Source: Octopus vulgaris (Eukaryota). From it: 64,000 nt of DNA. Below, piece after piece: positions 10,163 through 57,740 of this stretch. Location: positions 74,710,001-74,774,000 of the forward strand of contig OX597815.1 in the NCBI GenBank assembly GCA_951406725.2. Direction: 5' to 3'. Every line of letters begins with the position of its first letter. Positions within the stretch are counted from its first letter, which is position 1. The notes under the pieces were generated by a model. The model saw only the letters and a list, made by a program, of their open reading frames with translations, had not been told where the DNA came from and did not search any database. The position numbers were made by a program, and so were the translations under genes.

Positions 10163-10559
10163 CATCACTGATATTATTATTTGCATTTTTTTACTATTTG
10201 TCATTGTTAAAACTTCCTCTGATCCGACATGAGTTTTGGCTAAATTATTGTCATTTATCAATATTATTATTATCACAGTTATTACCGTTATTATTATTAT
10301 TTCCAATTATAATTAAAAGGTGATATTAAATGTTTAATTTTAACTTCTGTCTTGTATTTGAGATAATTATAATTAGGAGCAAAAGAAACAGCTTGGTGAA
10401 CAGATTAAATTGCACAGGTCTGTAAATAGATTCAGCAGATGGTGAAGAGATCAGCAATGGGCATTACTGTGCGATAAGGAGACAAAAGAGGCCTCACATA
10501 GCATAGATTGTTCACAATTTAAATTGGTCGGTTACACAAATCACAAATTTGTGATATGC

Positions 10560-13390
10560 TCAATCGATTTAGACAGCAGCCGTAGACAGGACCCGGTTAC
10601 TGGAAGTTGAATGCGTCCTTACCGGCTCGCAAACACTATAAGGACCGGGATAGAGAGCTAGTTAAGAGGCAGTTGACGAGAGCTATCGTCAACAACCGGA
10701 AGTAGATCGCTCTGAAGAGAGCAATTAGAGTAGAATCGATAGCGTTTAGCAAAGAGTTAGCAATAGAAAATATAGATTAGAGGAAGAACTAGTTAGCAAA
10801 CTAGAAGAGGCTATAAGGCATCGCAACCAACGTGTTAGCGGCGAGAATGGCCCTTGACCATTTCTTTCAGGCGAAACACGAAGGGTGCATTGTCAAAGCT
10901 AAGGCCCGTGCGCTAAAACACGAAAGGTAGAGATGTGACGTGGAAGCAAAACCACAATTAAGTCTTTGATGGATCAAGATGGACGCTTGCTACTCGTTTC
11001 TGAGCAGATATGTGCGACTTTCCAGCAGCATTTTGTGCAGATATTTGGGGAGGGTGATGAGACGACGACGGTAGCAGACTACTTCGTACCCAGACGGCCT
11101 ACCACTGCTCTCAGTAACGGACACAAGATTCTGCGAAAAGCCGACTACAGCCCACTAAAATACGGGAGATGACGAGCAATTGCACAATTCGCAAATCGCC
11201 CTGTTTGGACGATCTGCCCTACGAATTCTATGTTTTCATTCCAAATTTGTTTGGCAGCCTCTTGGCAGATGTCAACAGTAACTGGCAACAGAACGGGAGA
11301 ATTCCTAATGCCGTAACACTGCTGAGAAAGGATGCCGACAATGGAGACGTGCTGGGGGAACTTTTGGCCTTTGACTCTGCTAAACACAGAATTTAAATTT
11401 TTGGCCAAAGTGTTAGCGTAAAGGTTGGCGCCTTTCGGTAGTCTGGTCAGAGAGGCACAAAACATTCGCAATCCCAAGCAAATCTATCCACGACAACCTC
11501 CATCTTATGCGATATATCGTAGAGGAGGCTGGAACTAAAGCTGGCTTTGGTGAGGCCCTAATCAATTTAGATCAGTCGAAAGCTTTCGATAGGGTAGACT
11601 ATCACTACTTGGAAGCCGTCCTTAAAGCAGCCTGTTTCGGACCCATTTTCAGAGGCTAGATTGCTGCAATGTACAGCGGCACCTGTTCGGTGGTCAAAGT
11701 AAGCGACCACCTATCGGGACCATTTAGTATCGCGCGTTCGGTCCGTCAGAGCTGCCCGCTGTCACTTCTTCTGTATATGCTGATTCTCGAGCCACTTCTG
11801 CGGAAGTTGGGACAGTTAAGAGGCATCCCTTTCGAAATTAGACTCGAGAGGGCAGTGTCTGCTTACACGGATGACGTCACCGTAATGGTGCCAGACGCCT
11901 CCGAAGTGGAAACGGTCGGCTCCATTGCAAAGGAATATGAGTCAGTTGCAGGGGCTAAAATCAACGCCGACAAGTCGGTGGGATTGCAACTGGGCACCTG
12001 GAGAGGCAGATGATGCCGTCAGACGGCGTCGTCGGACGCTGGACTGATTGACCAGTTAAACTGCTCGGAGCTTGGTTTGGTCCCGACCTGCAGGTGGATA
12101 AGAATTGGGAAGAGGTGACGAACAAGGTGGCCTGTCTTACCCAGAAATAGAGGAGAGGAAGTTGTCTCTGAAAGGTCGGGCAGAGGTGGCGAATGCCTAC
12201 ATCGCCTCTCTCATTATTTATCGTCTGACCGTCGTGCCTTGACCAAGTTACTGCTTGATTAGATTGGAACGTATCCTACTTATTTTTTTGTGGAAGGGAC
12301 GTGTTCCAATGCTCAGGTGGTCGGTCTGTTACCAGCCCCCTCTGCTTGGCGGGTTAGACATGCCATGGCGTTTGATGCGCAGACACGCATTCAGATTGCG
12401 CCACCTGCAACGATTTCTAGAAGATGAATGTGTGTGGGCTCCGTTTGTGGGTCACTCATTTCCGCAGCTCGTCTCCTTGACGGAGCTGCAGTCCTGGGAA
12501 AAGAACAGGCAGAGACTTAGAATATTGTCAGGTGCTCACTGTCCTCTACAAGTTGGGCAATAAAATCGGTGGATATTCCAATTTAGCTATATACAGAGGA
12601 TTAGTAACGGGGAAGTGCGACGACGAACTCGGTGAGACCCTAGGCGACAACGTGCTCGGGGAGACCCTAGGCGTCGACGAAGACGAACTGGCAAGTCTAT
12701 CCCGAAGGACCGTCCGGTCGAGGACTACTATGGATAATTTCCAGATGTCTTTGGCCTGGCAGTGCTACTGAGGGTTGCTACTGGTTCGAGATAAACTCTA
12801 CAGGCACGGATGTGCTGTCAAACGTTCTGTATGCATTCGGTCAGTGTCTGGACATTGCTGACTTGTGGAGTTATGTCGAACAGCTGCTGTCTGGTGTGGG
12901 ACAGATCATTCTCTCAGTTGAGTCCATATTGATGATTGCCCCGCCGCCCTCCTTCAGTCGGGCAGGCAACGCAATTTTCTTTTGTCTGGTGGCTGTAGCA
13001 AAAGAGGTTGTCTGGTGGACGAGGCTGAAAGTAATGAGGACAGAAACATTTCTCTTTGATAAAGCCCTCATCGACTTTTTCAAGTTTCACTTGGAAAGGA
13101 AAGTGAGGGTAGAGAATGGGGTACTGTCCTCGAGTATATTTATGAAAAGGTGGGTGAAAGCTGCGAAAATTTCAAGAGTGAATTGTACCACTCTCAGTGT
13201 AGACCTGTGAGTCAGAAGAGAGGAGTTGGATATGGCTCTTGTCCTTGGAATTCAGAGTGATCTTGAATGGTGGAGTTCCTTAGTTATCTCTAGAGGACCT
13301 CCTGAATCAGAGGGACCCCATCACTATCACTTTTTTCATTCTAGTATCGTATACTATGCATACTTCCCTTCTGTTGTATACCGCGTATAC
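10560..13390 (+). mobile_element. Tx1/L1-clade LINE ORF2 remnant
   Basis: GPGYWKLNASL, LLNTEFKFLAKVLA, NLDQSKAFDRVD, VRQSCPLS.LLY, SAYTDDVTV, WKGRVPM, GGLDMP motifs with many stops and frameshifts. Confidence 0.9.
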
Positions 13391-13424
<34 letters not shown>

Positions 13425-14010
13425 GAAGGTAGCGAGCTGACAGAATCGTTAACCCACAAGACGAAATGCTTAGTAATATTTCACTCGTCACTATGTTCCG
13501 AATTCATATTCTGCCAAGGTCGACTTTACATATCATCCTTTCGGGGTCAATAAAATAAATACCACTTGAACAGTGGGGTCGATGCAATCGACTCATGTCT
13601 TCCCCAAATTTGCTGACCTTATGGCAAAATCTGAAACCGTTATTATTAATATTATTAAGGCAGCGAGCTGGCAGAATCGTTTGCTCCCCGAATGAAATGT
13701 TTAGCGGCATTTTGCCTATCTTCACGTTCTAGGTTCAAATTCAGCCGAGGTCGACTTTGCATTTCATCCTCTCGGGGTCGATAAATTAAGTACTTGTGGA
13801 GTACTTGGTTCGATGTAATCGACTACACCCTCCCCCAAATTTCAGGCCTTGTGCCTATAGTAGAAAGGATTATTATATTATTATTATGAAGGCGGCGAGC
13901 TGGCAGAATCGTTAGCACGCTGGATCAAATGCTTAGCAGTATGTCGCCCGTTTCTGCGTTCTGAGTTCAAATTCCGTTGAGGTTGATTTTACCTCTCCTC
14001 CTTTCGGGAT
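13425..14010 (+). mobile_element. Cluster of three tRNA/CORE-type SINEs
   Basis: Repeated head ggcggcgagctggcagaatcgttag, B-box-like gagttcaaatt and core 'gtcgactttgcctttcatcctttcggggtcgataaa'. Confidence 0.8.
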
Positions 14011-14638
14011 TATTATTGTCATTATCATTATCATTCATTTGTAACAAAAAAAAAATACTGATTTCTAATATTAGCACGAAGTCACGAATCAATCTGTATA
14101 TGACAAATACTTAATTTTCCGACTTTGAAATAATGAGAAGCAAACTTATCCATTGTAGATTTGAACTCAACTCTTTTACGTTTCTGCGATCATAATGCCA
14201 TATGATCCTTGCCTGTACCAGGCAAAGGGTTGTGTCTGAACAATGTACTTCATTTAAAGCTGTTCCAGTTTACTCAGCTGAAAATGAGTAACAGCTTAGT
14301 ACTGGTGCAGCTCTCTTTCTCGCCCCAGCTGGGTAAAAAAAAAGGGTGGAAATGTTGAGAGGATGTTTATGCGTGCTCTTGGTTCCATGAGCACAGAAAA
14401 CAAACTAATGAAAGGGTGAGGGTAATGGTTAACTATTTTTATGTCATCTGTTTCTACAGACATCATGGAACAAATCAAAACTAAACAAAGAAAAACTGTG
14501 ATAAAAAATATTTAACTAAAATAATTACTAAATATTAATAACATTGTGTTAATTAATGGTGCAAGAGTTTATCAATAAATAAATTTGAAACCGAGTCGAA
14601 ACGAATTAAATATAATCATTAACAACAGTTTTTCTTAC

Positions 14639-14690
14639 CTTCAATTCCTATACATAAGATTACCAGTCCAAATACTGTATATTGTTTCAT
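14639..14690 (-). CDS. Probable first coding exon (signal peptide) of a second gene
   Basis: ATG then MKQYTVFGLVILCIGIE, ending G|gtaaga (strong phase-1 donor); basic-hydrophobic-small signal-peptide pattern. Downstream exons not identified. Confidence 0.55.
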
Positions 14691-14951
14691 CTCTGTTTCT
14701 GCATTTGCTCATAAGAGTGAATATGTGAAAAGTGTATATCTGTGGGGTTTTTTTCTACGTTTTGGAGACTTGGCAAGATAAATTTATTTTAGTGTAAAGT
14801 ATACTCTGTTCTGCTTTCGACGAAACGGAATACAAGACTCAGACTGAAATAGCTGGATACCGGTTTTATTTGTTGCTTTATACCTTTAATAATAATACAT
14901 CCTCTTCTCACCCAATCTTAATACACATACAAACATACATACATATATGAA

Positions 14952-14987
<36 letters not shown>

Positions 14988-15060
14988 TGTATGTATGTAT
15001 GTATGTATGTATGTATGTATGTATGCATGTATTGTACACACACATAAGCACGCACATATG

Positions 15061-17399: not shown

Positions 17400-19290
17400 T
17401 AAACAACATTTTTTATCTAACCTTGTGGGGCATAAATAAACAAATGGTTAGGATTGCTGACTCTGGAGCATCCCACATAAAGTTGGCTATGGGAGAAAAC
17501 TGGTTCCGCAAGGTTCAGATCTACCACATCCAATGCTGTCCCTGGGCCTTGTTAATGCTCATTGCAAATCTCAGTTTCAACGGGAATTGCAGGCGCTTGT
17601 ACTGGAAAGGCATATCCGAGGGAATAAGTGGGATTCTAAGAATGAATACAGGCTCACCGTTTGCTTTACCAGAAGTTTGATGTTTAAATCATCAACTGTC
17701 ACATTCTTTGGAGCTGAAATGGCACGGGTGGTTTTCAGCCAGTTGTCGTCTGTAACCTGATTCCTTAGGTTAGGAAGCATTTTATTCATTAGACCCTTTA
17801 AATCAGATACCATGCCCAAAAGGCAAGCTTAGCCGGCCATCCTTCTCGCCAACCGAAGTGCCATTACCGACGTCCAACAGTTGCATTGAAAAGAGTCTGC
17901 CTGCATCATCACCACTGAGCTGCAGTCTCATGCTGGTTGTGAGTCTCAGTTTTTGCACACTACTCCATAGGTACCTCATCAGCTCTTGTCTCATTTGGAG
18001 CCATGGGAAGGGTTTGTCTAAAGTCTCCTGAAAGCAAGACTCTGACATCTCCCATGAGCCTGGTGTTGTGTCTCAGATCCTGAAGGGCCATGTCAAGAAC
18101 TTCAAAGGAAACTTTATGGCTCATTATTACCTCATCTCAGATGATCAACTTGTATTCACCCAGAAGTTTGTCTTTTATAGAACCACGACTGATGTTGCCG
18201 TTTACCTTCTCTTTTTTGGACAGGTTCAAAGGGAGTTTGAAACAGGAATGAGTTGTGTGGCCACTACTTAGCAGAGTTGCAGCAATTCCACGTGACGCCA
18301 CTGTTATGGTAATGTGTTTCATTTGGCGCAGTTTAGCCAGAATAAGGTTGATGACAAATGTCTTGCCAATTTCACCTGGAGCATCCAGAAAGAAAATACC
18401 TCTTCTTTCACTTTCAATGCTTGAAATGGTGGTCTTATAAACACCCAGTCTGTCCTCTATCAGTTTGTGTTCATTATTAGCTATATACGCCGTCATTTCC
18501 TCGATATCATAGTAGATTTCTCGCAGGTACTCAAATACGAGATTGTATTGTTTGCTGCCTGCTCTGGTTGTGGCAGACCAAATGTGGCAATGCCTTGACC
18601 TCCCATAGCTTGCACTCGGTTGTCCAGATCAAGTAATTCCTCGTTGTAAATGGCGTAACTGAACGTGGAAATTTCCGCTGAGGCTTGCCTTTGAATCCTT
18701 TGTAGGATGTCCTCAGCCATGCTGGTTTTGTGAGTCGTCCAAAGCGTGAGTGGTTCACCCAAGCCACATGTCATCAACATGATAGAAAATAGCTGGCGAA
18801 GTTGAATTGGTGCTCTACCTCATCCAGTGTCTGGTTCCATTGAGCATCGTTCTCCAGTAGTCCATGTCTGGCGCGGGCTTCTCTGTAGGTCGTGCATACT
18901 TCCCCATTGTGTCTTCGAAGGTCTGACAGTGTGCAGCAGTAGTCGCAGAAAGAAGCACTCCTGCTGATTAGGGTACACAGTGTACACCCACCCGATGGCC
19001 CCACTTCTGAAGATAGCACGTTCTTCCTAGCCCTCAACGCACGCTCCTTACTTGCGTCTGTTCCATCTATTGTGTGTTCAGTATAGTACACGGGAACCTC
19101 AATATAGAACAGCGTTTGGGCATGCAGATCATATTGGCATAATTTGAAGAAAGCTGTCAAAGTGGTTTCTGATGGATACAGAACAATGTTTCGAGCATTG
19201 TCTTCTTTGAAATATACACGCTGGACATTTTCAAGATGTACATACAGATTCATCACTGTAGGATGCCTCTCGTGAATTTCGAAGCCTTCG
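17400..19290 (-). mobile_element. Helitron Rep/Pif1-helicase remnant
   Basis: LYVHLENVQRVYF, TTLTAFFKLC, FFLDAPGEIGKTF (Walker A), VASRGIAATLL..G.T.HS.FKLP, LLDVGNG motifs. Confidence 0.9.
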
Positions 19291-22202: not shown

Positions 22203-23131
22203 CGAGCAGTATAGCCCGGCGTTGCCCGGGTTTAAGTTAGGATTATTAAGCTAATCAACCGCTTTGTTTCAAACTAAACAAAGTAACATCGACGTCAAAT
22301 TTGAGCGAAATCCGTTGAAATTGGTAAACTTTTGGCTGATAACGGGTTGCAGAGAATTTGATTGGGAAATCCCATAAGGAGTCGGTTTATCGATTTTTCC
22401 ACTCATCGATTGTTTTTTTGTTTTTTTAGAACTTAAAGCATTCAAAGATCCCACGAGTCCTAAGTAACGCCGGCATCTAGTTTGAACAAAATACATCAAA
22501 ATTGGTAAAATTTATGGTTGGGTGTAGTCAATTCTAGTGGGAAATCCTATAAGGAATCGGTTTATCGATTTTTCATCCTGATTGAATGGAAAACCTCATA
22601 AGGAATCAGTTTATTGAAGATATGCATTGGAGAAGGTTGCCTCGGAGATCTGCATTGTAGAAGGTTGCATCGAAGGTTTGCACGCTATTATATATATATA
22701 TTATATAGAGGGCATTATTACACATAAATGCCGCACGCTAGGAGGGACTCTTAAAGTCAAAACTACCAAAATAAACATATCGTACCGAATGCAAGTCTCG
22801 AAGCAAATAATTTAGAAACAGAATTTAGCTGCAGATCACTAGTGATTTCGTAATCAACGCAGCAACTGCGTCCCTTACTCATCAGTACAGCGAATTCAAG
22901 ATATATAATGAATGAACAAAATCAACATACCAGACGAACAATCATCGTATCCACCGTAGAATATAGAAATGTTCACCCCTCATACATCTATGTAAATGGC
23001 GGGCTTTTTTTTCTCTTATGAGGTCTTTCACGCTAACTACTTGATAATTTCTTATGAAGATTTTATCCTATTTTTAAATTATATATACATATATATATAT
23101 ACACACACAATATGTCACATTCTCTACTATA

Positions 23132-24760: not shown

Positions 24761-27533
24761 TCTTAATGAAATCAGCAAACAATCAACGCTACTGAGCAAC
24801 AAAAAGAGAACAAAAATACTCCGCAAATATAACATCACAGAGAAAGATTTGCCTGAAATAAAAGAAAAGCTGAAGCAAGATATCCTTGCCAAAGCACAAA
24901 AGATCCGCCGGTACGAGAAACGCCAACGCTTCTTTGAACAAAACAAAAAGTTCAACTCCAACCCAAAAAGTTCTACCAAGAACTGGGCAAAAATAAAATA
25001 GAAGTCACTGCAGCACCAACGGCAGAAGAATTGGAAGAATTCTGGAGAGAAATATGGTCGGCGAACGAACCACCAAAAAAAAGGAGTATCAAAATAACAA
25101 ACTCGGCATCTGAACAACTTTGGACCCCCATAACAACTGAAGAGGTCACCCAGGCACTGCAAAGACTAAGCAACTGGAAGGCACCTGGGCATGACAAGAT
25201 CCCCAACTTCTGGTTGAAATATCCAACAGGAATGCACAAAAAGCTGGCTGAAAACTTTAACAACGTACTAGCAGAGCCAGAGACAATGCCTGAATGGCTC
25301 ACGAAGGGGAAAACCATCTTAATTCCCAAATCAAATGAAACAGAAAAACCAGAAAACTACAGACCAATAACCTGCCTCCCTACTATGTTCAAGGCATTTA
25401 CTGCAGTGATATCACAAAGGCTGAACAAGCACCTGGACGAAAACAAACTGTTCCCAGAAGAGCAGAAAGGATGCCGCAAAGGCTCATATGGCTGTAAAGA
25501 TCAACTAATGATTAATAAAGCCATAACTGAAGACAGCCACAGAAAGAAGAAAGGCCTCAGTATGGCCTGGATTGACTACAAAAAGGCGTTTGATAGCATC
25601 CCCCACACATGGATCCTCGAAACACTAGCCATTAACAAAGTAGCACCAACAATCATAAAATTCATAGAGCACTCTATGAATAAATGGCAAACAGTCCTAC
25701 ACCTCCAAACAAAAGAGGGACTCATTAAAACCAAAGACATCTCCATTAGAAGAGGAATATTCCAGGGAGACACGTTCTCTCCACTCCTTTTCTGCTTGGC
25801 ACTGTCACCTCTATCTGATATGCTAAATAGAACTGGATGCGGATATAAATGTTACGGCAAAACGATCAGCCACCTTTTATATATGGATGACCTAAAACTA
25901 TACGCTGCAAATGACAAACAGCTGGAAACACTATTAAAGACAGTTCATGGATTTACCAAAGAAATAGATATGAAATTTGGATTAGAAAAATGCGCCAAAG
26001 TAACCATGAAAAGAGGAAAACTAGTTAAGAGTAACAACATCACACTAGATAAAACCAATGAAATAAAAGAATTAGACCAAAGCCAAACTTACAAATACTT
26101 AGGAATCCATGAACTAGATAAGACACAACACACACAAATGAAAGAGAAAATAAAAAAAGAATATTATAGACGAGTTAGATCAATACTAAACACAGAGCTC
26201 AATGCTAAAAACAAGATAATAGGCATCAACACTTTAGCTGTCCCAGTTATAAGTTACAGCTACAATATCCTTAACTGGACACGAAATGAACTGACCAAAA
26301 TAGATAGGAAAACAAGAAAAATAATGACAGGATCTAGAATGCATCACCCAAAATCTGACATAGAAAGACTATATATACAACGTATAGAAGGTGGTAGAGG
26401 CCTTATACAGCTGGAAAATTACTATAAAATAACCACCATAGGACTGCAAAAATATTTACTTCAGAAGGAAGGAAAACTGATCCAGATAGCGGCAAAACAC
26501 GAGCAAAACAAAAAACTATTCTCAGTATTTAAGGAAGCTGACAAATACAAACAAGAAATCATACCACCTAATAAACATGAAGAAGAAGAAGAAGATGAAG
26601 AAACAACAAAAGCTATAAAACAAATGAAATCCAAACTAAAAATAGAACAGCAACGAACCATGATAAAACGATGGCAAGAAAAGCCCCTTCATGGTAAATA
26701 CTGGACTAAACTAAACGCAAAAGAAATAGACAAAGAAAAATCCCAGCAATGGTTGAGAAGTTCAGGACTCAAAGCAGAGACAGAGGGATTTTTAATTGCA
26801 GCATAAGACCAAAGCCTTCCCACCAGAAATTACCAAAAACATGTAATGAAAAGAAATATTACAAGTAACTGCAGAATATGTGGAGATGGACAAGAAACAA
26901 TAAATCATATTATCTCTAGCTGCCCAGTCCTGGCTAAGAAGGAATATATTCACAGACATGACAGAGTTGGAACCTACATACATTGGAAGCTATGCCAACA
27001 TTATGGAATAACAACAGAAGAAAGATGGTATAGGCACACACCAGAAAAGGTCACAGAAAACGAGAAAGCAACCATACTCTGGGATATGCCGATACACACA
27101 GATAGAGAAATTAAGGCCAACAGACCAGATATAGTTGTCAGATATCATGAAGAAAAAAAATGCTTTCTAATTGATGTATCAATACCGGCTGATGACAACG
27201 TGTATCTAAAAGAAATGGAGAAACTCTCAAAATACAAAGACCTGGAAATAGAGGTAACTAGAATGTGGAATCTGAAAACAGAAACAATTCCTATCATAGT
27301 AGGTGCATTAGGCATGATAAAAAAATATTCAGACAAATACATAACAAAAACACCAGGACTTACAAACACATATAACATACAGAAAATTGCACTACTAGGC
27401 ACTGCACACATCCTACGCAGAACACTTTCCATACAATAACCATCAGAGCATCACAACAAATCACAGCACATACCCAAGGCACACAGAGCTGCGCTCGGTA
27501 GTGAAGTGAAAGCACGCTATAAAAATAAAACTA

Positions 27534-42942: not shown

Positions 42943-44193
42943 TCAGGTCGTCCCATAAGTTCTGTCCGAATTTTGAATAAAGAAAACAAGTGATCAAATG
43001 TTATATTTAACTGAAATTTAATCATCAATGTACTTTCCCTGATTATCTAGGACTTCCATCTATTTACAAGCTTTTTAATCCCATCAATGTAAAACTCTTT
43101 CGGTTTCAAAGCGAAGAACTCTTAAATGTCAGTTTCCACCTCCTCCTGGCTTGCGAAAGTTATGTCCCCCAAATGATTCTGTAAACTACGAAACAAATGG
43201 TAGTCTGAAGGAGTAAGGTCGGGAGAATAAGGTAGATGAGGAATTTTTTCCCACCCAAGCTCTTCGATCTTCTGTAATGTGATCTTTGCAGTGTGGGGTC
43301 GCGCATTGTCCTGATGAAATATCACTCCTTTTCGATTCACTAAAGTGGGTCTTTTTTTCTTCAAAGCTTCGTTTAAATGCTCCAATTGCTGACAGTAGAC
43401 TTGAGCGATGATTGTTGCATTAGGTGGTAACAATTCAAAGTGAATTACTCCTTTGCAATCCCACCAGATAGAGAAAAGAACCTTTTTCCCATGAAGTTCC
43501 CTTATCGGTTGTGGTTGAGTTTTTTTTTCCTTTTACCAAGCCACTGTTTACGACGTTTAACATTTTGATCGAAGATCCATTTTTCGTCACCACTCACAAG
43601 TCTATCCAAAAAGGGTGAAATGATTTCGCGAGAATGGAGAGAAGAGCAGATTTCAACTCAGGATTTGCGGTTGCTTTTGCACAATTCATGAGGCACTCAT
43701 TTTCCAAGTTTAGGAACCTTTCCAAGTTGTTGAAGATGACAATGAACAGTTGTATGGCTTGAACTAAACTTTATTACCAATTTTCTTCAAGTAATACCTC
43801 AAGGAGCTTATCATCAAACTCAACTGGACGTCCTGTTCGATCTTCATCTTCAAGGTTGAAATCTCCACTTCTGAATTTTGCAAACCATCATCTACAAGTT
43901 CTTTCATTCAAGCATTCTTTCCCATAAACTGAGTGTGTTTCGAGTCGCTTCGGCTGCAGAGTTTCTTTTTTTGTACTCATAAAGCATTATGTGCCTCAAA
44001 TGCTCTTTGGATACTTCCACGTTAGAAAGGGTTTTAATCAAAGAAATTTTAATTCTATTATCCTGTAAAATAATATTTAATTAATTTAAATGTACAAAAA
44101 TGCATAAAAATAATTTTTAATGCCATTAAACATTCTAAAATGCCATTAAATTACATTCAGTTTTAATCGGACAGACCTTATGGGATGACTTGA
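42943..44193 (-). mobile_element. Mariner transposon, full length and decayed
   Basis: TIRs tcaggtcgtcccataagttctgtccga / tcggacagaccttatgggatgacttga with TA TSD; HQDNARPH and YSPDLTPSDYHLF. Confidence 0.93.
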
Positions 44194-46965: not shown

Positions 46966-48206
46966 CAGGTATTGGACAAAATAATTGAAAAAGACCTTAA
47001 AATTTCAAACAAATTTATTTTAATATGGCGTAGGACCGCCTTTGGCAGAAATTACCGCTTGAATCCTACAAGATATGGGCTCGTACAAAGTTGGAATTGT
47101 TTCCAAAGAAATTTTTGTCCATTCTTCAGCTAAGAGTTTCCAGTTCTTCTAGTGATGATGGTGGGGGATATCGACTCCTTATTTGTTTTTCTAAAATGCA
47201 CCATAAATGTTCAATTATATTAAAATCTAGGGACTGTGGTGCCCACATAAGATATTCAACTTCACTAGAATGTTCCTCGTGCCATTCAGTAACAACTTTA
47301 GTTGTGTGAATTGGTGCATTATCAATCCTGGAAGATTGCGTTTCCCTCCGGAAACAGTTCTGCAACCATAGGATGAATTTGATCAGATAAAAATCCTTTG
47401 TCTTGACTATTAATTCTGCCATGAAGGGAAACCATTGGGCCGGCGGATTTCCAAGATATAGCACCCCACCCAAAATCATCACAGATACTCCTCCATGTTT
47501 AACAGTTGGAAGAAGGCACTCTGCATCAAATGCTTCTTTTGGCCGTCTCCACACGTATACTCGGTCGGTGGTCGGAAATGAGGTAAGGGATGACTCGTCC
47601 AAGAAAATAACATTTACTCCACTCTAAACGCTTTGCAACGTTTGCTTTTGAAAGTAGTGGTTTTCTGATTGCAGCCCACCCGTGAAATCCGGCTTTCTGC
47701 AGCTCCCGGCGAACAGTTTTTGTGGAAACCGAGTTCTTGAGGTGGTCATTAAGCTCTGCGGTAATTTTGGGTGCTGTACTTTTGTGATCTTTTCTTAAAA
47801 TTCGCGTAAGAGTCCGACGGTCCTTATCTGAACGTTTTGGTTTTCTTCCGGAGTTTTGTTTCGACGTGGAGGTTTTTCCCTCTTTCTCAAAGGCTGTCAT
47901 TACTTTCGAGATAGTACTTCTTGATACCTCAAACATTTCGGCTGTTTTCGTTACGCTAGCGCCTACCATACAAGCACCAACTATTTGACCTCTTTGAAAG
48001 TCCGATGGATCTATCATTTTAATGAATTTTAATTACCTTTTTCTGATGGTATCTGAAATGAAACAACAATTTTAGCCAAACATCTTAAGCAGCACTAACA
48101 ATGAATAAAAAAACATAAAAATAAACAAGCTTTTGATTGCTTTATAGATATTTCAAAATTATGATACTATGATGCTAGGTGTTTCCATTATTTGGTCCAA
48201 CCCCTG
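46966..48206 (-). mobile_element. Tc1-like transposon, full length and frameshifted
   Basis: TIRs caggtattggacaaaataattgaaa / gtttccattatttggtccaacccctg with TA TSD; ORFs 47526-48017 (HTH) and 47126-47602 (DES, DNAPIH, DFNIIEHLW). Confidence 0.95.
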
Positions 48207-48956
48207 TATGTGTATGTGAAAGGGTGCGTTTGTGCGTGTATCTGTATGCATATGTGTGGTGTACGCCATATTTTCTCCCGTTCTAAGCATTTTCTCTCAT
48301 CTACTTTATCAATATAGAGTCAACTTTAAGATATCGATACATTTTACTTACACAAATACAATTTCACATCTCCATTCTTCAGGTTTGTTAGAGTTCCTGT
48401 TCTCCCAGTACAATTAATTAGTATGTCGTTCATAAAATTCTCAATTGTACTTTCGTTTATATGGCATATTGATGGAGCTAAAATAAATCAATATCTTTAA
48501 ATATTATCAATATGTTTACTGAAACGATCGATATGCTTACATAATTTATGTACCTTTGCAGGGCCATCACTTGAATATTACTTCGAAAGAAATCAAAGAA
48601 AAGGGATCTCATAGCATTACGGCAAGAAATATATATTTCATCCCCACAGGAGTAGCACACTTAATAACGCACACATTTCCCTCAAACACTTCATGATAAC
48701 TCTTACCGGCTTTACAGCGAATTCAACCAATGGACATAACTCCTAACCTAATCCCTTGCTCATTTTCGTTTCACCATCTTTTTCATAGGAACCGCAACCA
48801 GATGTGTCCATTCACCTCCGATAATAGAGTGCAGTCACCACATTCCTTTCCATATCGGCTAACTCTGATGAGCGTAAGGTTATATAATCAGATTGCTACC
48901 TAAGAGAATTCCTAGCGCGATTGGTAAGATCAGCCGTGATAACTATATCATACTGT

Positions 48957-49026
<70 letters not shown>

Positions 49027-49149
49027 ATGCATATATATATTCCTTTTTCTTATACTCTTCTATTATTTTACTTGTTTCAGTCATTTTGACTGAAGTGGAA
49101 GACGGGAGGAAGAGGGAAGGGTGGCTAAGGTAATATGTGAACCATGACA

Positions 49150-51960
49150 TTTGTGTTAATTTGCCCCACTAAATCCAACTTAGGTCGAATTAATAAATGC
49201 ATTATTGACCGTATTCTACCCCTAGTTAGGGTTAACGTCAAGCTTCCGCTCTGAAATTGCACACGAGACGTCATCACTTGGTTTCACTCTCTTCATGAGA
49301 AACAACACAACCATATCCTTCACTTTGACATTTCAAATTATTATTCTTCTATATCACCAATTCTCTTAAATAAAGCCTTAATCTTCACCCGAAAATATGC
49401 TCCCACCTCCCTATCGGATATCAATATCATCCTAGCTACAAAGAAAACTCTGATTCATTTTAAGGATAATAATTGAACCTGCAACTCATCTACGGATTTC
49501 TTCGATATAACCATGGGCGCATGACTTAATTGACCGATTCCTTCTCCCCCAAATTAAACAATATTTCCCCAACCTCTCCAGTGGATTATACAGGGACGAT
49601 GCACTCCTTTCATCAACTGGATCATCTCGACCGTCAGTGGAATGCATCAAGGAAATCCCATACATTTTTTTTGAAAACTATAACCTGAGTATTTCATTCG
49701 AAATTGACACTAAGGGGGCTAGTTTCCAAGACGTTACTTTCAACTTAAACACAAATCTATATCACCCTTTTGATAAACCCAATCAATCTTTACAATATAT
49801 AAATGTCCTCTTTAATCACTCTATACTTACTTTTAGTAGCGTAATCACAATCATGGCTATCAGAATCTCTAACTTATCTGCTAACGAAGAAACTTTTAAC
49901 CAAATAAGCGGCTACCACGAAAAAAAACTATCATACCCCCAACACTAAACTTAAAACTAAAATAACACATCTCTTTCCCAATACTAACCCTGAATCTACG
50001 GACACTACTTTCACTCTACACCAATCCAACAACTCTAAAAAACCCTTACACATCACACTCGGCCGCCCTACTGGCGACCCCGAGCCTATAACAGCTACAA
50101 GCATCCCTTCCTGATCAACTCACTTCAGCCATATACTCTAAACATTCTAAGGCCAGGTAGCCGGAAATCTTATGGTTCGCACCACCTTTCTCTCTCCAAC
50201 TTAAATATCTACCTAAACTCTTCTTTAAAATCTTGAAATCTAACTTTCTATCACAGCGTAAATACTATCCCATATTTAACAAATCATCCGTGAAAATCTC
50301 CTACTACACCACACCTAATTTTGGATCCATAATCGCCTCTTCGAACAAACACAAATTCCAACACCAGTACTCTGAACATCTAAACTCTCACACTGCATCC
50401 CAAGTTAGCCCACATAGTAGCAATAACACAACCCTTAGTAATCCCACTCAATTAAACGATAGAATACTCAAGCAATCATCCTACAATCCTACCCAGGCAA
50501 CGACAAATACTAGCTGCAATACCATTTCCCAATCTAATACAAATACAGATTACCTTTCAGGTTCTCCCCCACTAGCAATGAACAAACGAAGCTCAACCTC
50601 ACTAGCAGTAAACCCCAACCGTGGAACTTGTAGGAAAACTTGCAATTGTCGTGTCTCTCAATTTTGCCCTCTTGCAGTCTTCTGTCTACGCAAACATGTA
50701 ATCTACAAGTACCGTGTTATAACACCATGCTCCCACCAAACAAGGACATATATCGGCGGCACCGTAGATTTCGAGTCCATGTGTGCTACCGTGCACACAT
50801 GAACTCTTTCTCCAATCCAAATTCTAATTTATCAACCTCCTTAGCAACGTATGTACACAACTTTAAATCTCAAAATATTCCATACGCCCTATCCTGGTCC
50901 ATACGCCCTATCCTGGTCCATAGTAAAAGTTCCCTTTTACAATGCAAACATCGGCAAGTGAAATTTATGTCTAAAAGAATCATTAACCATTCTTCGCCTT
51001 CATAACTCCTCATTACTTAATAGATTCTCAGATGTCATTTATTCTTGTAAACACAAGTACTACTACTCATCTTTCACGCACTTTGCTAATTCTATGTAAT
51101 CCCATGATAAGTTTCCATATCCAAAAAAACTTAAATTAAGACAAAGTCATCCTAACAGCCTACTACTTAAAAAATACTACTCCTCCCCCTCTTAGTCTTT
51201 CTCCTACACACTTTTCCAATTGCTTCCAAATTCTTCAAATCAACTCCTTCCCACTTCACTCTTAACCTCTCCTCTCTCCCCAGTTTAAAAAAAATCTACT
51301 TGACAGTACTTCACTCCTTCGAAAACTAACCAATCTACATCTACCCCTTCCATATTCACACCCCTCTATTCAATTTCATACACTTCTCTTTACCATAACA
51401 CCTCACCTTCAATACTGACCCAATTCCTTTGTCCCACAAATAATCACATTTTGACCACCATCTCATCCCCACTTTATCCCCCCTCCATCTCTCATTCCTC
51501 TTTACACACCTTACTAATCTCCCTCAACCACTGAACCAGTCAACTTTCAAATAATAGCCATCCCCATTTTCACTATCTCAACCTTTAACGCTATAGCTCT
51601 CATACAAATAAACACAAACGTCACCATTCACATACTACCAAAAACAACCTTCCTTCTTCCTCTCACTTTCCACCTCATCATTAATCCTAACCCTGAAATG
51701 TATTTCCTTCTCCCACTAATCTTTGTCTAAATACCCCACAACTTCCCTTTCTAATACACTTAGTTCTCCACAAAATTATGCCATCTTTAAACTCCATTCT
51801 GTCAACACCTCAAATGTAGAATTCTTCTTTGAAGACGGAGGCTGGTATTATCCGATAATGGAATCAATTTACAATCATTATTCTGGATTACCAAGCCCCC
51901 AAAACAGCTGTTGGACACATAAAACTCTTATTCAACCTCTTTAATTCCTGATATAATTTC
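49150..51960 (+). mobile_element. Penelope-like retroelement remnant (RT, C-terminal GIY-YIG, 3' terminal repeat)
   Basis: FDITMGA, GLYRDDAL, FQDVTFNL...YIN..NH, IFNKSSVKISY, CNCR..CPL..CL..VIY..TYIG, SWSI, NLCLKE, SCKH motifs; degenerate hammerhead-like motif at ~51824-51916. Confidence 0.85.
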
Positions 51961-52236
51961 CATTGTGTGTAATTCGGACCTTTTTATATGTAAACATATA
52001 TACATTAATAGAAATATTAAAATTACTAAGTCTCTCTAAAAGAGATTACGGCAGCGTTACTGGAAATTAATAGTTATCGCCATACTAATATGGCAGTCTT
52101 ATAAATATAAGACTAAAGCTGGCGCTGATTAGCTCCATGAGGCCATCGCCTTAAGCTAGCTATTTGACACACAAACTGCGTCCATTATAAACCTTCGAAC
52201 AAGGGAGGTCAGCCGCTTCATCCTGCCAGTCAGGCA

Positions 52237-52280
52237 GCTACAGACGACGTTTCAGGGTTGTTGCCCCTTATCAATGAAGC
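52237..52280 (-). ncRNA. Minimal type I hammerhead, U3-A8 core variant (copy 1)
   Basis: gcttca TTGATAA gggg caacaa ccct GAAAC gtc GTC tgtagc; one mismatch in stem I. Confidence 0.6.
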
Positions 52281-52309
52281 GTAGTCAGACTTGCAGGTGT
52301 CGCTACTGA

Positions 52310-54033
52310 AATCTTTATTATAGGCACTAAGGCCCGAATTAAGAGGGGACATTACAAACAGGACGTGAGGTACATAAAGTAAAAAAATGGAAAATTATGA
52401 ATTGAAATGGATATTTATAATGGATTAGATGGAACAGCTTACGAGCCCCCCAAAACTTGCAGTTTCATTTAAAATACAATTTTACAGTTTACAATTTTAC
52501 AATTACATATATTACTCTGCTACGTCGGGCGCTCGTCTGTAATGCCTGGTTCTTCATCTGTTATATACTCTATTAAGCTCTCTTGATCCACAATAGCTGG
52601 TAAGGTGTCATAACGTACATATAACCATTCAAATATTCTATAATCATATGTCATTTTCTGCACTGTCTCTTTCTCCACGATTACCGCCTTCCACAGGTCA
52701 TCATATATTTCTGGGTTCAACTTTACTCTAATTAAGCCTTTCCTACTTGCCAACATCTTTTCCGTATTTTTGTCCTTGTCGTATAACATTACCACTCTGT
52801 GTTTCTTTCCCTTGGGTCTTCCTCCTCTCTTACAAGCTTTCAACTGCTCTTTCATTCTTCTGTCCCATTCTTCCTCTGCTGTTAGTTTTACCGGTTCACT
52901 CACTTCTGCTTTTGTATCCTCTTCTCCCGTTCGGTTTTCCTTCTCGTCAGTAATCTTGTTTTTCGCTTTTTTCTTCTTCTTTTTTTATTCTTTAGGTGGT
53001 GATTCCACCCGCGTTCTTTTTCTATTTTCTTTCTCCAACTCTTCACCACTTTCCACATTATCTGTAGTGACGATTTCCTCCTCCACACACTCATCTTGCA
53101 ACTCATTCGTTAAAGTCTCCAGTGCTATCGTTTTCTCCCGCACTTCTCCCAGCGGACACACATCCTTCATGTGGCCTCTTATTTTGCATTTGTAACACCC
53201 TGGGGTCTCCTCTCCCCCACGACTCTGAGACGTGTCTCGTCGGGGAACACCAACTCCTCCGGGATGTTATACAGGTCAGGCACTGTAATGTGGACCAACG
53301 CCTGCACTGCATAACCCCACCACTTTACATCTTTTGATTTTTCGACTTTCAATATTTCCACGTTTTCTTTGCAGTTAAACACCACTGCTGCTAAAATCCT
53401 TTCCATATTTAGTTCCGGCGAAATCTTACTTATTCTTATTCTTACTGCCCTTTTCCCGCAGTAGCTTGGTAAACACACCCATTTTTCTGTTTTTAAAATT
53501 TTCGTTGCGTTCTTCTTCGCCTCGTCTTCACTTTTAAAGTGAACGACCACCGTTGCGAACTTTCTACCTCTGTTGTAGTAGGTAGACTCTCCTTCTATTC
53601 CTTTAAGACAGCATTCAATTTCCTACATCGGTGCCACTTCTATTTTCTTTGAAGTCACGCTCCACGTTTTGTACGTTATAATCCGTTTCTCCGCTTCTTC
53701 CGCTTCTTCTTCGGGTGGTGTGACCTTCACACAGTCACCCACCCTCTTCAAGCTGTCGAAATACTTGTTCAACGTCTCCCTCTCGACGATGACTTCTTCT
53801 AACTGCAATTCGTTCGCAACCAGGCCCTTGCCTGCTGCACCCGCATACGTCTGGGTTTCCATTTTCGAGAAAAAATCTCAAAAACTTCACCACGCCGTAA
53901 CAACTTCCACCACCGGATTCGATCTCACGAACCGCGACACTACAATAAAGTAGTCAAAATTTTTCCGACGCCAAAAAAATACAGCTACACACCAATAACG
54001 TAATCCTAAATATCCTACACCAAAATTCAAAAA
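52310..54033 (-). mobile_element. ORF1-only (gag-like, CCHC zinc knuckle) retroelement with 17-bp TSD
   Basis: TSD gcaggtgtcgctactga at 52293-52309 and 54034-54050; disrupted ORF from METQTYAGAA (53862) to stop at 52520 with CYKCKIRGHMKDVC; AATAAA at 52314-52319; no RT or endonuclease motif seen. Confidence 0.75.
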
Positions 54034-54336
54034 GCAGGTGTCGCTACTGATCGTCCCAGTTCGAAGGCTTTATTTACCTAGTTTCGGTGGAATACATCCA
54101 CTTGTTTACAATAATAGAAATATTAAAATTACGAAGTCTCTCTAAAAGAGATTACGGCAGCGTTACTGGGAATTAATAGTTATCGCCATACTAATATGGC
54201 AGTCTTATATATATAAGACTAAAGCTGGCGCTGATTAGCTCCATGAGGCCTTAAGCTATCTATTTGACACACAAACTGCGTCCATTATAAACCTTCGAAC
54301 AAGGGAGGTCAGCCGCTTCATCCTGCCAGTCAGACA

Positions 54337-54379
54337 GCTACAGACGACGTTTCAGGGTTGTTGCCCTTATCAATGCAGC
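54337..54379 (-). ncRNA. Minimal type I hammerhead, U3-A8 core variant (copy 2)
   Basis: gctgca TTGATAA ggg caacaac cct GAAAC gtc GTC tgtagc; stem I fully paired. Confidence 0.65.
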
Positions 54380-54699
54380 GTAGTCAGACTTGCAGGTGTC
54401 GCTACTGAAAAAAGGCAACAACCCTGAAACGTCGTCTTTAGCTGTCTGACTGGCAGGATGAAGCGGCTGACCTCCCTTGTTCGAAGGTTTATAATGGACG
54501 CAGTTTGTGTGTCAAATAGCTAGCTTAAGGCGATGGCCTCATGGAGCTAATAAGCGACAGCTTTAGTCTTATATTTATAAGACTGCCATATTAGTATGGC
54601 GATAACTATTAATTTCATATATACATTTTTCTATTTAATTTATTTAAATTTCTTGAGCACTACGAAGTGTATTCTATATAGAGAATACCGGTCTCTAAG

Positions 54700-54740
<41 letters not shown>

Positions 54741-54838
54741 AAGGGATATAATAAATATCCTGGAAACAGCTGTAAGACATTCTATCTATAAATATTCTAA
54801 AATCTGCACAGCCTTGGTTTTTTATCTTATTACGGAAT

Positions 54839-54904
<66 letters not shown>

Positions 54905-55060
54905 ATATAAATATAAGAGAGTGGTCACTATATTGATCACTCTAGCACCAGTTAATCCAAAAGGTTTCAACCACGAAAATACATGTTTCCCATGAAAGCC
55001 AGTACGACTGTTAGCTCACACGGACAGGGCAAATAAAAAATAACAAAAATACAGATTATT

Positions 55061-55136
55061 TTGGGACAATTGTTTCGCTATTAATGAATTAAATGTAATA
55101 TTACTTACAACAATCCATTTGTAGCTCTTCAGCCAA
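55061..55136 (-). ncRNA. Type I hammerhead ribozyme (sense to the host pre-mRNA)
   Basis: Reverse complement of the 55717-55792 motif. Confidence 0.85.
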
Positions 55137-55716
55137 GACTATCTGGATGAAATCCACTCAATCACACGCCAGATTTTACCATAACGATAAATACGCGTGC
55201 GGTTCAATTGATTACATCGGACGTTATAATTCAAATGCCCCAACCAACAGCGCGCCAAACTCACACGGAAACAAATACAGCATTTAGAAATAAATGCAGC
55301 ATAATTATAATTAATTAATAAGGGTGAGAGAATTAGATACTAATTTAATAGTATATTTATTCCACACCAAGTGGCCTAGTGCTACGAGAAACCTGGATTA
55401 TTATAATATTTTATAACATATTATAATATTTTCACAAAATAAATATAAGAGAGTGGTCACTATATTGATCACTCTAGCACCAGTTAATCCAAAAGGTTTC
55501 AACCACGAAAATACATGTTTCCCATGAAAGCCAGTACGACTGTTAGCTCACACGGACAGGGCAAATAAAAAATAACAAAAATACAGATGTGAGTTTGGCG
55601 CGCTGTTGGTTGGGGCATTTGAATTATAACGTCCGATGTAATCAATTGAACCGCACGCGTATTTATCGTTATGGTAAAATCTGGCGTGTGATTGAGTGGA
55701 TTTCATCCAGATAGTC

Positions 55717-55792
55717 TTGGCTGAAGAGCTACAAATGGATTGTTGTAAGTAATATTACATTTAATTCATTAATAGCGAAACAATTGTCCCAA
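55717..55792 (+). ncRNA. Type I hammerhead ribozyme
   Basis: ttgg CTGAAGA gcta[...]tagc GAAAC aatt GTC ccaa; palindromic stem III acaattgt; predicted cleavage after C55788. Confidence 0.85.
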
Positions 55793-56249
55793 AATAATCT
55801 GTATTTTTGTTATTTTTTATTTGCCCTGTCCGTGTGAGCTAACAGTCGTACTGGCTTTCATGGGAAACATGTATTTTCGTGGTTGAAACCTTTTGGATTA
55901 ACTGGTGCTAGAGTGATCAATATAGTGACCACTCTCTTATATTTATTTTGTGAAAATATTATAATATGTTATAAAATATTATAATAATCCAGGTTTCTCG
56001 TAGCACTAGGCCACTTGGTGTGGAATAAATATACTATTAAATTAGTATCTAATTCTCTCACCCTTATTAATTAATTATAATTATGCTGCATTTATTTCTA
56101 AATGCTGTATTTGTTTTCCGTGTGAGTTTGGCGCGCTGTTGGTTGGGGCATTTGAATTATAACGTCCGATGTAATCAATTGAACCGCACGCGTATTTATC
56201 GTTATGGTAAAATCTGGCGTGTGATTGAGTGGATTTCATCCAGATAGTC

Positions 56250-56325
56250 TTGGCTGAAGAGCTACAAATGGATTGTTGTAAGTAATATTACATTTAATTC
56301 ATTAATAGCGAAACAATTGTCCCAA
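56250..56325 (+). ncRNA. Type I hammerhead ribozyme (tandem copy, 533 nt downstream)
   Basis: Identical motif; predicted cleavage after C56321. Confidence 0.85.
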
Positions 56326-56603
56326 AATAATCTGTATTTTTGTTATTTTTTATTTGCCCTGTCCGTGTGAGCTAACAGTCGTACTGGCTTTCATGGGAAA
56401 CATGTATTTTCGTGGTTGAAACCTTTTGGATTAACTGGTGCTAGAGTGATCAATATAGTGACCACTCTCTTATATTTATTTTGTGAAAATATTATAATAT
56501 GTTATAAAATATTATAATAATCCAGGTTTCTCGTAGCACTAGGCCACTTGGTGTGGAATAAATATACTATTAAATTAGTATCTAATTCTCTCACCCTTAT
56601 TAA

Positions 56604-56665
<62 letters not shown>

Positions 56666-56991
56666 TTGGGTAGATGTATGTTTACATATATAGAAAATAG
56701 ATATATATATAAGAACAAAACCACTCTCGGACGGAAAAGAGATGTATGGCTCATCACAGGACTTGAAGCACGCATCTGACTTTCGATTACCCACAATTGG
56801 AAATTTAATTAATTTTTTCAACGCACTCATCTTGCTTTTGATTAAGGGAACATGTATATTTCCATTTTTCATTTTTTTATTAATTTGTAATAAACGTAAG
56901 CACAAATGAGATCTGAAAGAAAATAATGAGTAATTAACACATTAATTAGATATATAAAACTACATTAACATAAACAACTGTCTATTCTTAC

Positions 56992-57184: not shown

Positions 57185-57740
57185 CTGAGGAGAAAAATAA
57201 GATACATTTAAGAAACACAGGCAATTGTGACAATAGAAATGGGAGAGAAAGTATACAGCACACTAAATATTACATCTTATGTGTCAGTTAATGGACTGTT
57301 GCCAGTCCGTTGGATGGCTTTCTTTTGTATTATGTCCCATAAGTACAACACAAAGAATTTTGTATAAAGTAAGGTTTTATCGGCTGAATACATGTAGATG
57401 TTGCAGATCAGTGAAGGCGACGGAAGGTAAATTTGTTTTCGTCACTATAACATGAATCCAATAAAGCTTATATGTTTTCTTTAAACAAGAGGTATTGATC
57501 ATTTATGAAAATGGCCCTTTGAGGTGTAGAATATACAGAATTTAATCTTCAACAGCTTTATATTTCATGTATACTGGTTACATTATATTGTGTTCTTAGT
57601 TAAATGTAGAGCAATCTTCAGCTGCACAAAGACATAGAATTTAATTAAATTAGAACAGATGGACACATTAGTATAATTAGACCTAAAAATCTCCAAGAAG
57701 TAAGGAGATAGATAAAAACATGTCTCTACTTCAGCATAGA

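What the first reader, a model, noticed from the sequence alone, without database searches (positions are those of the whole stretch)
54908..56610. Intronic tandem-plus-inverted array of a 533-nt hammerhead-ribozyme unit (retrozyme / Penelope terminal-repeat-like)
Seen: three near-identical canonical type I hammerheads (CTGAAGA core, stem II gcta/tagc with a long extension, GAAAC-aatt-GTC palindromic stem III). Two are head-to-tail on + with cleavage sites exactly 533 nt apart, one is on -, and the array sits between (TA)n tracts with no coding ORF. Known: minimal hammerheads with palindromic stem III loops act as dimers and occur in Penelope-like pseudo-LTRs and in non-coding retrozymes that yield circular RNAs. 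Inference: a + transcript could excise a 533-nt monomer that circularises. The - copy is sense to the host pre-mRNA, and the inverted layout would form several hundred bp of intronic dsRNA. This may be an undescribed cephalopod retrozyme family.
Basis: partly seen in the sequence, partly recalled or inferred. Interest (0 to 1): 0.82.

Follow-up and report, generated by a model that had tools for sequence, protein, structure and literature searches.

The report
Octopus ribozyme repeat, Penelope-type insertion
This is one young, intronic copy of an abundant protein-free octopus repeat that carries a predicted self-cutting RNA motif and was likely pasted in by a Penelope-type jumping-gene enzyme; it is a new member of a known class (retrozymes), and neither cutting nor an RNA circle has been shown.

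Summary
Three identical type I hammerhead motifs sit in a 533-nt ORF-less unit, arranged as a 1.92-unit forward arm (55588-56612) and a 1.29-unit inverted arm (55588 to 54904), joined head to head inside (TA)n, in an intron of a minus-strand Octopus gene. The unit is a high-copy family (roughly 10^3 copies from depth ratios). Contigs of 4 of 4 public runs join its end to its own start. In two runs, one likely a cDNA library, it assembles as a single closed loop, and no branch into a coding sequence was seen. Tandem plus inverted arms, offset 3' ends and a TA target are the published footprint of Penelope-like elements. Best reading: a non-autonomous, Penelope-mobilised retrozyme, copied past the ribozyme site three times from an RNA circle or an uncut multimer (about even odds). 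This copy is probably a poor source of circles, because its inverted arm is predicted to bury the ribozymes in a long duplex. The class is published, though I found no octopus case in print. This scan has already noted many similar octopus families on other DNA. Cleavage, circularity and the junction itself are untested.

The parts
55588..56612 (+). Forward arm, 1025 nt = 1.92 units. With position 1 as the first base after the predicted cut, it runs 333->533, 1->533, 1->291, and its 3' end runs into (TA)n.
54904..55588 (-). Inverted arm, 685 nt = 1.29 units, unit positions 9->533, 1->about 158-161. It starts 8 nt after the predicted cut site, and its 3' end lies about 130 nt earlier in the unit than that of the forward arm.
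55588..55588 (.). Head-to-head junction of the arms, with 1 shared base
   Evidence: not seen in any of 4 runs laid, which cannot show absence
55789..56321 (+). Predicted 533-nt monomer between the two cut sites; 33% GC, highly self-paired, no ORF above 54 aa, no tRNA
   Evidence: (z -7.1; 0 of 100 shuffles fold as well)
55708..55801 (+). Type I hammerhead 1 (core from 55721, predicted cut after C55788)
56241..56334 (+). Type I hammerhead 2 (core from 56254, predicted cut after C56321)
55052..55145 (-). Type I hammerhead 3 (core from 55132, predicted cut after C55065), sense to the host pre-mRNA
54839..54903 (.). (TA)n tract, left half of the likely target
56613..56663 (.). (TA)n tract, right half of the likely target
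48482..56989 (-). Host intron (8.5 kb) of an Octopus gene with F5/8-type-C-like domains (LOC115232490-like)

Best explanation
The array is one young insertion of a high-copy, protein-free, 533-nt hammerhead-bearing repeat (a non-LTR retrozyme), likely written into a (TA)n tract by the reverse transcriptase-endonuclease of a Penelope-like element acting in trans. Shown: the anatomy, the identity of the arms, the multi-copy family and the end-to-start joining of the unit. Inferred steps: (1) A source locus elsewhere is transcribed as a multimer. Pairs of hammerheads would cut it to 533-nt monomers, which a host ligase would close into circles, by analogy with mussel and axolotl. A lone hammerhead with its 2-bp stem III would be nearly inactive. 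(2) The enzyme would nick both strands of the TA tract and start cDNA from each end at two internal sites of the RNA, near unit positions 158 and 291. This offset corresponds to the Penelope 'tail'. (3) The two cDNAs would run through the ribozyme site twice and once, stop at positions 333 and 9, and be joined head to head. The template is a circle copied round more than once (about 0.5) or an uncut linear multimer (about 0.5). The Hydra clade is the likeliest enzyme class (TA target, canonical hammerheads, a dead relative nearby), but the partner is not identified. This copy itself is probably inert or weak, because the inverted arm would pair with the ribozymes.
For: Anatomy. It matches the published Penelope-like pattern of partial tandem, adjacent inverted 5'-truncated copy, one-sided tail and (TA)n bias (PMC8557442 passages; PMC3846280 passages). 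A purified Penelope protein cuts and extends both strands at AT-rich DNA and starts at two internal RNA sites that define the tail (PMC11167929). Multi-copy: 20 of 24 listed runs, from 11 studies, hold 61-90% of the unit's words. Run X1 lays 2512 contigs on the unit at depths of 6e4-1.2e6, against 81 on the single-copy flank (ratio 750-15,000, inflated by summing overlapping contigs). The end-to-start joint 56612->56080 is in 4 of 4 runs. X2 and X15 each give one closed loop contig, of 563 nt (533+30) and 566 nt. The share of laid sequence that runs on into unlike DNA is 0, 0.02, 0.07 and 0 for X1, X4, X2 and X15. A diverged copy in X4 (7 differences in 102 nt) ends at 56482 into a TA run, the same unit position as the inverted arm. 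All overlapping segments of this array are identical bar one indel and one end mismatch, and share T56123, which no contig of the four runs shows, while 20 positions vary in the family: one donor. Of 5 variable positions in the hammerhead, one is the tolerant core position 7, two are loop positions and one turns a G-U pair into A-U.
Against: No cleavage, circle or strand was measured; all runs were contigs. A closed loop in an assembly graph arises equally from tandem DNA or multimeric RNA. X15, which also gives a loop, is guessed to be DNA. X2's depth on the unit (52) is only 4 times that of another abundant repeat nearby (13), no more than the ratio in DNA run X4 (12-60 against 2.9), so no enrichment in RNA is shown. 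For the one Penelope tested in vitro, hammerhead cleavage was dispensable and uncut RNA was the main substrate. Only 1 of 9 predicted Xenopus retrozyme dimers cut in vitro. The two arms differ by a 1-nt deletion at 56114 that also segregates in the family (6% of X1 depth), so they may come from two sister RNAs. One variant (C56241A, 23% in X1) breaks the outer pair of stem I. The lack of variants in the core and inner stems is not significant (about 1 expected by my estimate, 0 seen). 82 of 91 loose ends were not shown, so a minor branch to a coding element is not excluded. No genome was held, so insertion ends could not be counted, and the junction has no independent support. The 533-nt unit shares no detectable sequence with the dead Penelope-like copy nearby.
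Confidence: 0.72

Rival explanations
1. The array is a stump of an autonomous Penelope-like element: only its terminal repeat (pLTR) was inserted, as partial tandem plus inverted copy, and the unit has no life of its own.
For: The anatomy is exactly that of Penelope-like insertions. Hydra-clade elements carry canonical hammerheads and insert in (TA)n. Most metazoan Penelope hammerheads occur as lone truncated copies. 82 loose ends were not shown.
Against: The sequence upstream of the unit is the unit itself in 4 of 4 runs, with unbranched closed loops in two, and next to nothing runs on into unlike DNA. Of the 9 loose ends shown, 4 are pieces of one palindromic library linker and 2 run into TA-like repeats. 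Two resemble diverged unit sequence (one at 18 of 30 letters, counted by hand) and 1 is unexplained. In an autonomous element the pLTR is preceded by the end of the ORF, whereas here 1.92 units follow each other with no coding sequence.
Confidence: 0.14
2. The repeat is a Penelope-derived satellite that spread or was duplicated at the DNA level (unequal crossover, fold-back repair); the hammerhead is a passenger and no RNA step made this array.
For: The 2026 preprint proposes local tandem amplification of Penelope termini. Identical neighbouring units are also expected from recent DNA duplication. TA tracts are fragile (own knowledge).
Against: Both outer ends are the 3' ends of sense arms and both run into (TA)n. 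One end position recurs in a diverged copy in another run. A second, unrelated hammerhead repeat 300 nt away has the same two-armed layout.
Confidence: 0.07
3. The array is an assembly artefact: one or two copies of a common repeat between TA tracts were duplicated or inverted by the assembler.
For: The segments are nearly identical and flanked by microsatellites. The junction and T56123 are not seen in 4 of 4 runs. Such structures trouble assemblers.
Against: Contigs drop rare variants, and X1 carries another haplotype at the flank (10 other letters and 22 gap letters in about 900), so absence is uninformative. The layout is the biologically expected one, with offset ends and a clean 1-nt junction, and the neighbouring family repeats it. 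The family and its head-to-tail joint exist independently of this assembly.
Confidence: 0.07

Closest known systems
Metazoan non-LTR retrozymes (Cervera and de la Pena 2020, PMC7229834: coral, mussel, axolotl; passages and text parts 3-4 of 6 read, supplement not readable)
   Same: ORF-less, low-GC (33%, published under 45%), head-to-tail unit with one canonical type I hammerhead per unit; short palindromic stem III; highly self-paired monomer whose predicted fold leaves stems I and II formed; high copy number; mollusc host.
   Different: The unit is 533 nt, against about 170-400 nt in that paper. Stem II has a 41-nt extension. The insertion has an inverted second arm (the word 'inverted' does not occur in that paper's main text). 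Cleavage and circles were shown there and are untested here.
Animal retrozymes as non-autonomous Penelope-like sequences (Li, Clavereau and Pollet 2026, bioRxiv 10.64898/2026.07.22.740005; parts 1-3 of 5 read, supplements closed)
   Same: Meets their definition of an active element (two consecutive units with complete type I hammerheads). The size lies within their 51-972 bp. They propose the Penelope link.
   Different: Their evidence is co-occurrence and pLTR homology in 35 genomes with no mollusc. Here the link is read from the insertion footprint, and no parent pLTR is identified.
Endonuclease-bearing Penelope-like elements, especially the Hydra clade (Craig et al. 2021, PMC8557442, passages; Arkhipova et al. 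2013, PMC3846280, passages; Frangieh et al. 2024, PMC11167929, parts 1-2 of 4)
   Same: Partial tandem plus adjacent inverted 5'-truncated copy, head-to-head junction, two 3' end positions, (TA)n target, hammerhead near the end.
   Different: No RT or GIY-YIG ORF. The arms exceed one unit and pass through the ribozyme site three times. The offset between the ends is about 130 nt, against a published tail of 30-40 bp.
[quoted passage not shown]
   Same: Type I topology, G10.1-C11.1 pair, palindromic positions 15.2-16.2 and loop 3, predicted dimer action.
   Different: No extra base between positions 9 and 10.1, a defined stem I with an internal loop, and a much longer stem II. It is nearer their 'canonical' class.

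Membership tests
Type I hammerhead ribozyme | Conserved core CUGANGA / GAAA / UH with three stems in type I order | tested here: met
   the hammerhead-compatible fold lies 1.3 kcal/mol above the minimum for 55706-55801, though a slightly wider window folds otherwise
Type I hammerhead ribozyme | Reaches the Rfam Hammerhead_1 gathering score | tested here: not met
   26.7 bits against 34; the long stem II insert is not modelled; no hit in 7 kb
Type I hammerhead ribozyme | Self-cleavage | not testable with these tools
   no raw RNA reads were offered
Non-LTR retrozyme | Head-to-tail units, each with a complete type I hammerhead | tested here: met
   joint in 4 of 4 runs
Non-LTR retrozyme | No protein coding, low GC | tested here: met
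   longest ATG ORF 54 aa, GC 33%
Non-LTR retrozyme | Many genomic copies | tested here: met
   order of magnitude only, and from another haplotype or individual
Non-LTR retrozyme | Transcribed | tested here: inconclusive
   closed loop at depth 52 in X2, whose contig on a nearby repeat ends in what I recall as a template-switch oligo; background from repeats or DNA is not excluded
Non-LTR retrozyme | Accumulates as a circular RNA monomer | not testable with these tools
   contigs cannot tell a circle from a multimer
Autonomous EN+ Penelope-like element | ORF with telomerase-like RT and GIY-YIG endonuclease between the terminal repeats | tested here: not met
   no ORF in the array; no branch seen in contigs
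Autonomous EN+ Penelope-like element | Partial tandem plus inverted 5'-truncated copy, offset 3' ends, AT/(TA)n target | tested here: met
   offset about 130 nt, longer than the published 30-40 bp
Autonomous EN+ Penelope-like element | Unit is homologous to the pLTR of a coding element | tested here: inconclusive
   no match in the window; genome and repeat libraries were not available

The most novel reading that the evidence does not exclude
An expressed 533-nt circular RNA of octopus is copied by rolling-circle reverse transcription, from both ends of one nick pair in (TA)n, by a Hydra-type Penelope enzyme. The array would then be a direct genomic print of the retrozyme life cycle, which has been proposed but not demonstrated: perfect passage through the ribozyme site three times, two fixed start sites 130 nt apart, and one arm stopping at the ribozyme cut site.
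Probability: 0.35. Interest if true: 0.6.

Novelty: new member of a known kind. Interest (0 to 1): 0.36.

Why it matters
How animal retrozymes get back into the genome is an open question; papers propose Penelope enzymes and a circular template. A young, abundant family with a readable two-armed footprint gives defined start sites and a defined RNA for an in vitro test with a purified Penelope protein. It adds cephalopods to the hosts I could find in print. A perfect 685-bp inverted repeat in an intron is also a likely substrate for A-to-I editing, which is extensive in octopus (own knowledge). The step is incremental: the class is known, the scan has noted many sister families, and this copy is probably inert.

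Tried and rejected
No whole genome was held, so copy ends and neighbours could not be counted. No RNA holder was listed on record; this is no evidence either way. The four organism labels cannot be read as four species: X4 does not cover the single-copy flank and may hold only traces of octopus DNA. X2, X4 and X15 give no cover of the flanking intron or exon, which says nothing on expression of the host gene. An exact 22-nt hammerhead pattern found 0 matches in metagenome contigs and 0 in viral contigs. ARAGORN found no tRNA, so there is no sign of a tRNA-derived SINE head. The six Rfam matches are sub-threshold microRNA models, five of them on microsatellites; rejected. Pfam did not recognise the decayed Penelope-like frames or their three relatives; that assignment rests on tblastn and motifs. 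Two look-ups of earlier scan notes by sequence and one by place found nothing, so I could not confirm that the 534-nt family of note e1-8672745 is this one. I first took five alleles rare in X1 as private to this locus. Four of them are the majority in X4, so only T56123 is kept. Priming by TA microhomology was considered: both ends are AT-rich (2.6% of unit positions are as AT-rich as the forward end; the inverted end lies at the best TA-like decamer, 8 of 10). But the in vitro work found initiation without homology, so this is left open. Literature searches for an octopus case: 'hammerhead ribozyme'+'Octopus' (5 papers, 4 listed, none on this by title or abstract); retrozyme with octopus/cephalopod/squid (the 15 listed of 4,965 hold no 'retrozyme', a weak search); Octopus+Penelope+transposable elements+circular RNA (0 papers). 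The supplements of PMC7229834 and of the 2026 preprint were not seen and could list cephalopods. Repbase and Dfam were not searchable.

Full report
1. Observation. A hammerhead descriptor run over both strands of the window found 4 type I motifs. Three are in the array and are identical (C3/C17 at +55721/55788, +56254/56321, -55132/55065). 200 dinucleotide shuffles gave 0.02 hits on average. Stem I has 4 pairs, an internal loop and 5 further pairs. Stem II has 4 pairs and a 41-nt extension that folds into a long hairpin. Stem III is two pairs closed by a loop within an 8-nt palindrome. As a hairpin stem III costs +2.4 kcal/mol, and as a duplex between two copies it gains -6.4, which fits the dimer mode described for animal hammerheads (PMC4209133). 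Rfam gives only a sub-threshold Hammerhead_1 match (26.7 against 34 bits) and none in a 7-kb search. The 533-nt monomer folds far better than shuffles (z -7.1, 0 of 100) and has no ATG ORF above 54 aa and no tRNA.

2. Anatomy. I number the unit from the base after the predicted cut. The forward arm (55588-56612) runs 333->533, 1->533, 1->291, and its two overlapping laps are identical over 492 nt. The inverted arm (55588->54904) runs 9->533, 1->about 161, with one 1-nt deletion at position 326 and one mismatch at 159. The arms meet head to head with one shared base, and both 3' ends run into (TA)n. The host is an Octopus gene on the minus strand: the exon query is 99% identical to O. sinensis LOC115232490, with a few residue differences elsewhere. 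The array lies in the intron between the exons at 57187-56990 and 48481-48350.

3. The family. No genome was held, so I used public runs. 20 of 24 listed runs, from 11 studies, hold 61-90% of the unit's words; none is on record as RNA. I laid 4 of the 20 on one full permuted unit and on 1 kb of flank. X1 gives 2512 contigs at summed depths of 6e4-1.2e6, against 81 for the single-copy flank, a ratio of 750-15,000. The tool warns that such sums are not copy numbers, and X1 carries another haplotype at the flank, so I read this only as about a thousand or more copies. Twenty positions vary at 5% or more. The joint from the unit's end to its start is present in 4 of 4 runs. In X2 and X15 the unit is one contig of 563 and 566 nt that closes on itself (533 or 536 plus a 30-nt overlap, my inference from 31-letter words). 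Almost nothing runs on into unlike sequence (shares 0, 0.02, 0.07, 0). Of the 9 loose ends shown, four are pieces of a palindromic linker that I recall as a proximity-ligation bridge, two resemble diverged unit sequence, two run into TA-like repeats and one is unexplained; 82 were not shown. One diverged copy in X4 ends at 56482 into a TA run, the same unit position as the inverted arm here.

4. Expression. An X2 contig on a nearby repeat ends in letters that I recall as a template-switch oligo, so X2 is likely a cDNA library. Its loop is one haplotype, three substitutions from the window's unit, and keeps two alleles that are minor in X1, which suits a dominant source transcript. Against this, X15 (guessed DNA) also gives a single loop. 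X2's depth ratio to another abundant repeat (52 to 13) is no higher than in DNA run X4 (12-60 to 2.9). A loop in an assembly graph cannot tell a circle from a multimer. Expression is therefore plausible but not shown.

5. Mechanism. Penelope-like insertions are described as partial tandems with an adjacent inverted 5'-truncated copy, a 30-40-bp tail at one end and a bias for microsatellites. Hydra-clade families insert in (TA)n and carry canonical hammerheads (PMC8557442; PMC3846280). A purified Penelope protein cuts and extends both strands of AT-rich DNA and starts at two internal RNA sites, the interval being the tail (PMC11167929). The array fits this with starts near positions 158 and 291 (inferred). 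Both follow a short CTTAT motif just after a predicted hairpin (weak, not tested for chance). What differs from a coding element is that upstream of the unit lies the unit again. All segments share T56123, which no contig of the four runs shows, so they have one donor lineage. The cDNAs crossed the ribozyme site three times without a scar. A monomer circle, in which the lone hammerhead would be idle, explains this simply. An uncut linear multimer does too, and uncut RNA was the main substrate in vitro. The inverted arm stops 8 nt from the cut site, as if at the 5' end of a cut RNA; one of two ends falling within 10 nt has a chance of roughly 8% by my estimate, so this is weak. The arms differ by one T-run deletion that also segregates in the family (6% in X1), so two sister RNAs are possible. 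I give circle and multimer even odds. The reading that one RNA is copied from both ends of the cut appeared in earlier scan notes before I tested it here.

6. What this copy does. In the predicted fold of the minus-strand transcript the array is 91% paired, the longest unbroken helix is 365 bp, and all 12 core positions checked of the sense hammerhead pair with the other arm. The antisense arm is transcribed first, so cutting of the host pre-mRNA is unlikely (inference). A + transcript reading in from the left meets the same inverted repeat, so release of a monomer would need a start inside the forward arm, upstream of the first hammerhead. I did not look for promoters beyond tRNA genes.

7. 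Neighbourhood. A second, unrelated repeat at 52001-54616 has the same layout: a unit of about 365 nt, a main arm on -, a 211-nt inverted arm and ends offset by 62 nt. Its hammerhead has the U3-A8 core, a variant described in PMC4209133. It is split by a 1.7-kb insert with a zinc-knuckle frame, between two copies of a 17-nt sequence. A decayed RT plus endonuclease frame at 49156-51054 matches unnamed proteins P0004-P0006 and shows the CxCX5C linker described for Hydra; P0006 has the DKT motif. It shares no detectable DNA similarity with the 533-nt unit, so it shows only that the enzyme class has been present in this genome.

8. Known and new. The element works like, and by sequence criteria belongs to, the non-LTR retrozymes (PMC7229834). 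Their Penelope origin is argued in a 2026 preprint, which also found that only 1 of 9 predicted dimers cut in vitro. It is not an autonomous Penelope element. I found no octopus case in three searches, with supplements and repeat libraries unseen. Earlier notes of this scan describe octopus families of 356-600 nt with the same footprint, including a 534-nt one in this genome that may be the same family. These are unchecked notes, not independent support. Verdict: real, a new member of a known kind, interest 0.36.

Noticed in passing
window 52001-54616: Second hammerhead repeat (about 365-nt unit, U3-A8 core at -54373 and -52274) with the same tandem-plus-inverted layout, 211-nt inverted arm and ends offset by 62 nt.
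   Followed up: partly
window 52310-54050 (-): 1.7-kb frameshifted insert with a zinc knuckle, looking like a LINE ORF1 with a short 3' end (recalled resemblance). It lies between two copies of a 17-nt sequence (52293-52309, 54034-54050), 19-35 nt upstream of the hammerhead of the 365-nt repeat.
   Followed up: partly
window 49156-51054 (+): Decayed Penelope-like RT plus GIY-YIG-like frame with a Hydra-type CxCX5C linker, followed by a 1-kb C-rich tail with what looks by eye like a degenerate hammerhead core near 51830-51860.
   Followed up: partly
window 22834-22885 (-): A single, unrelated type I hammerhead (CTGATGA core, 6-bp stem I, palindromic stem III) about 200 nt from a TA-rich tract; no second copy in the window.
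   Followed up: partly
window 57600-57690: Fragment of another very abundant repeat (X1 depth 2-5e5 against 81) beside the (TA)72 tract, with a CTGAAGA motif on the minus strand but no canonical hammerhead by my descriptor; possibly one of the 'rewired' motifs in earlier notes.
   Followed up: no
window 31594-60300 (-): The host protein has an internal duplication of about 250 aa in O. sinensis (P0001); the window holds exons for one repeat and the C-terminus.
   Followed up: no
window 47129-48032, 43125-43532, 24938-27436, 18140-18628, 11660-12010: Tc1/mariner-type transposase pieces, a 622-aa RT frame with a zf-RVT piece, a PIF1 helicase piece and another RT piece (Pfam).
   Followed up: no
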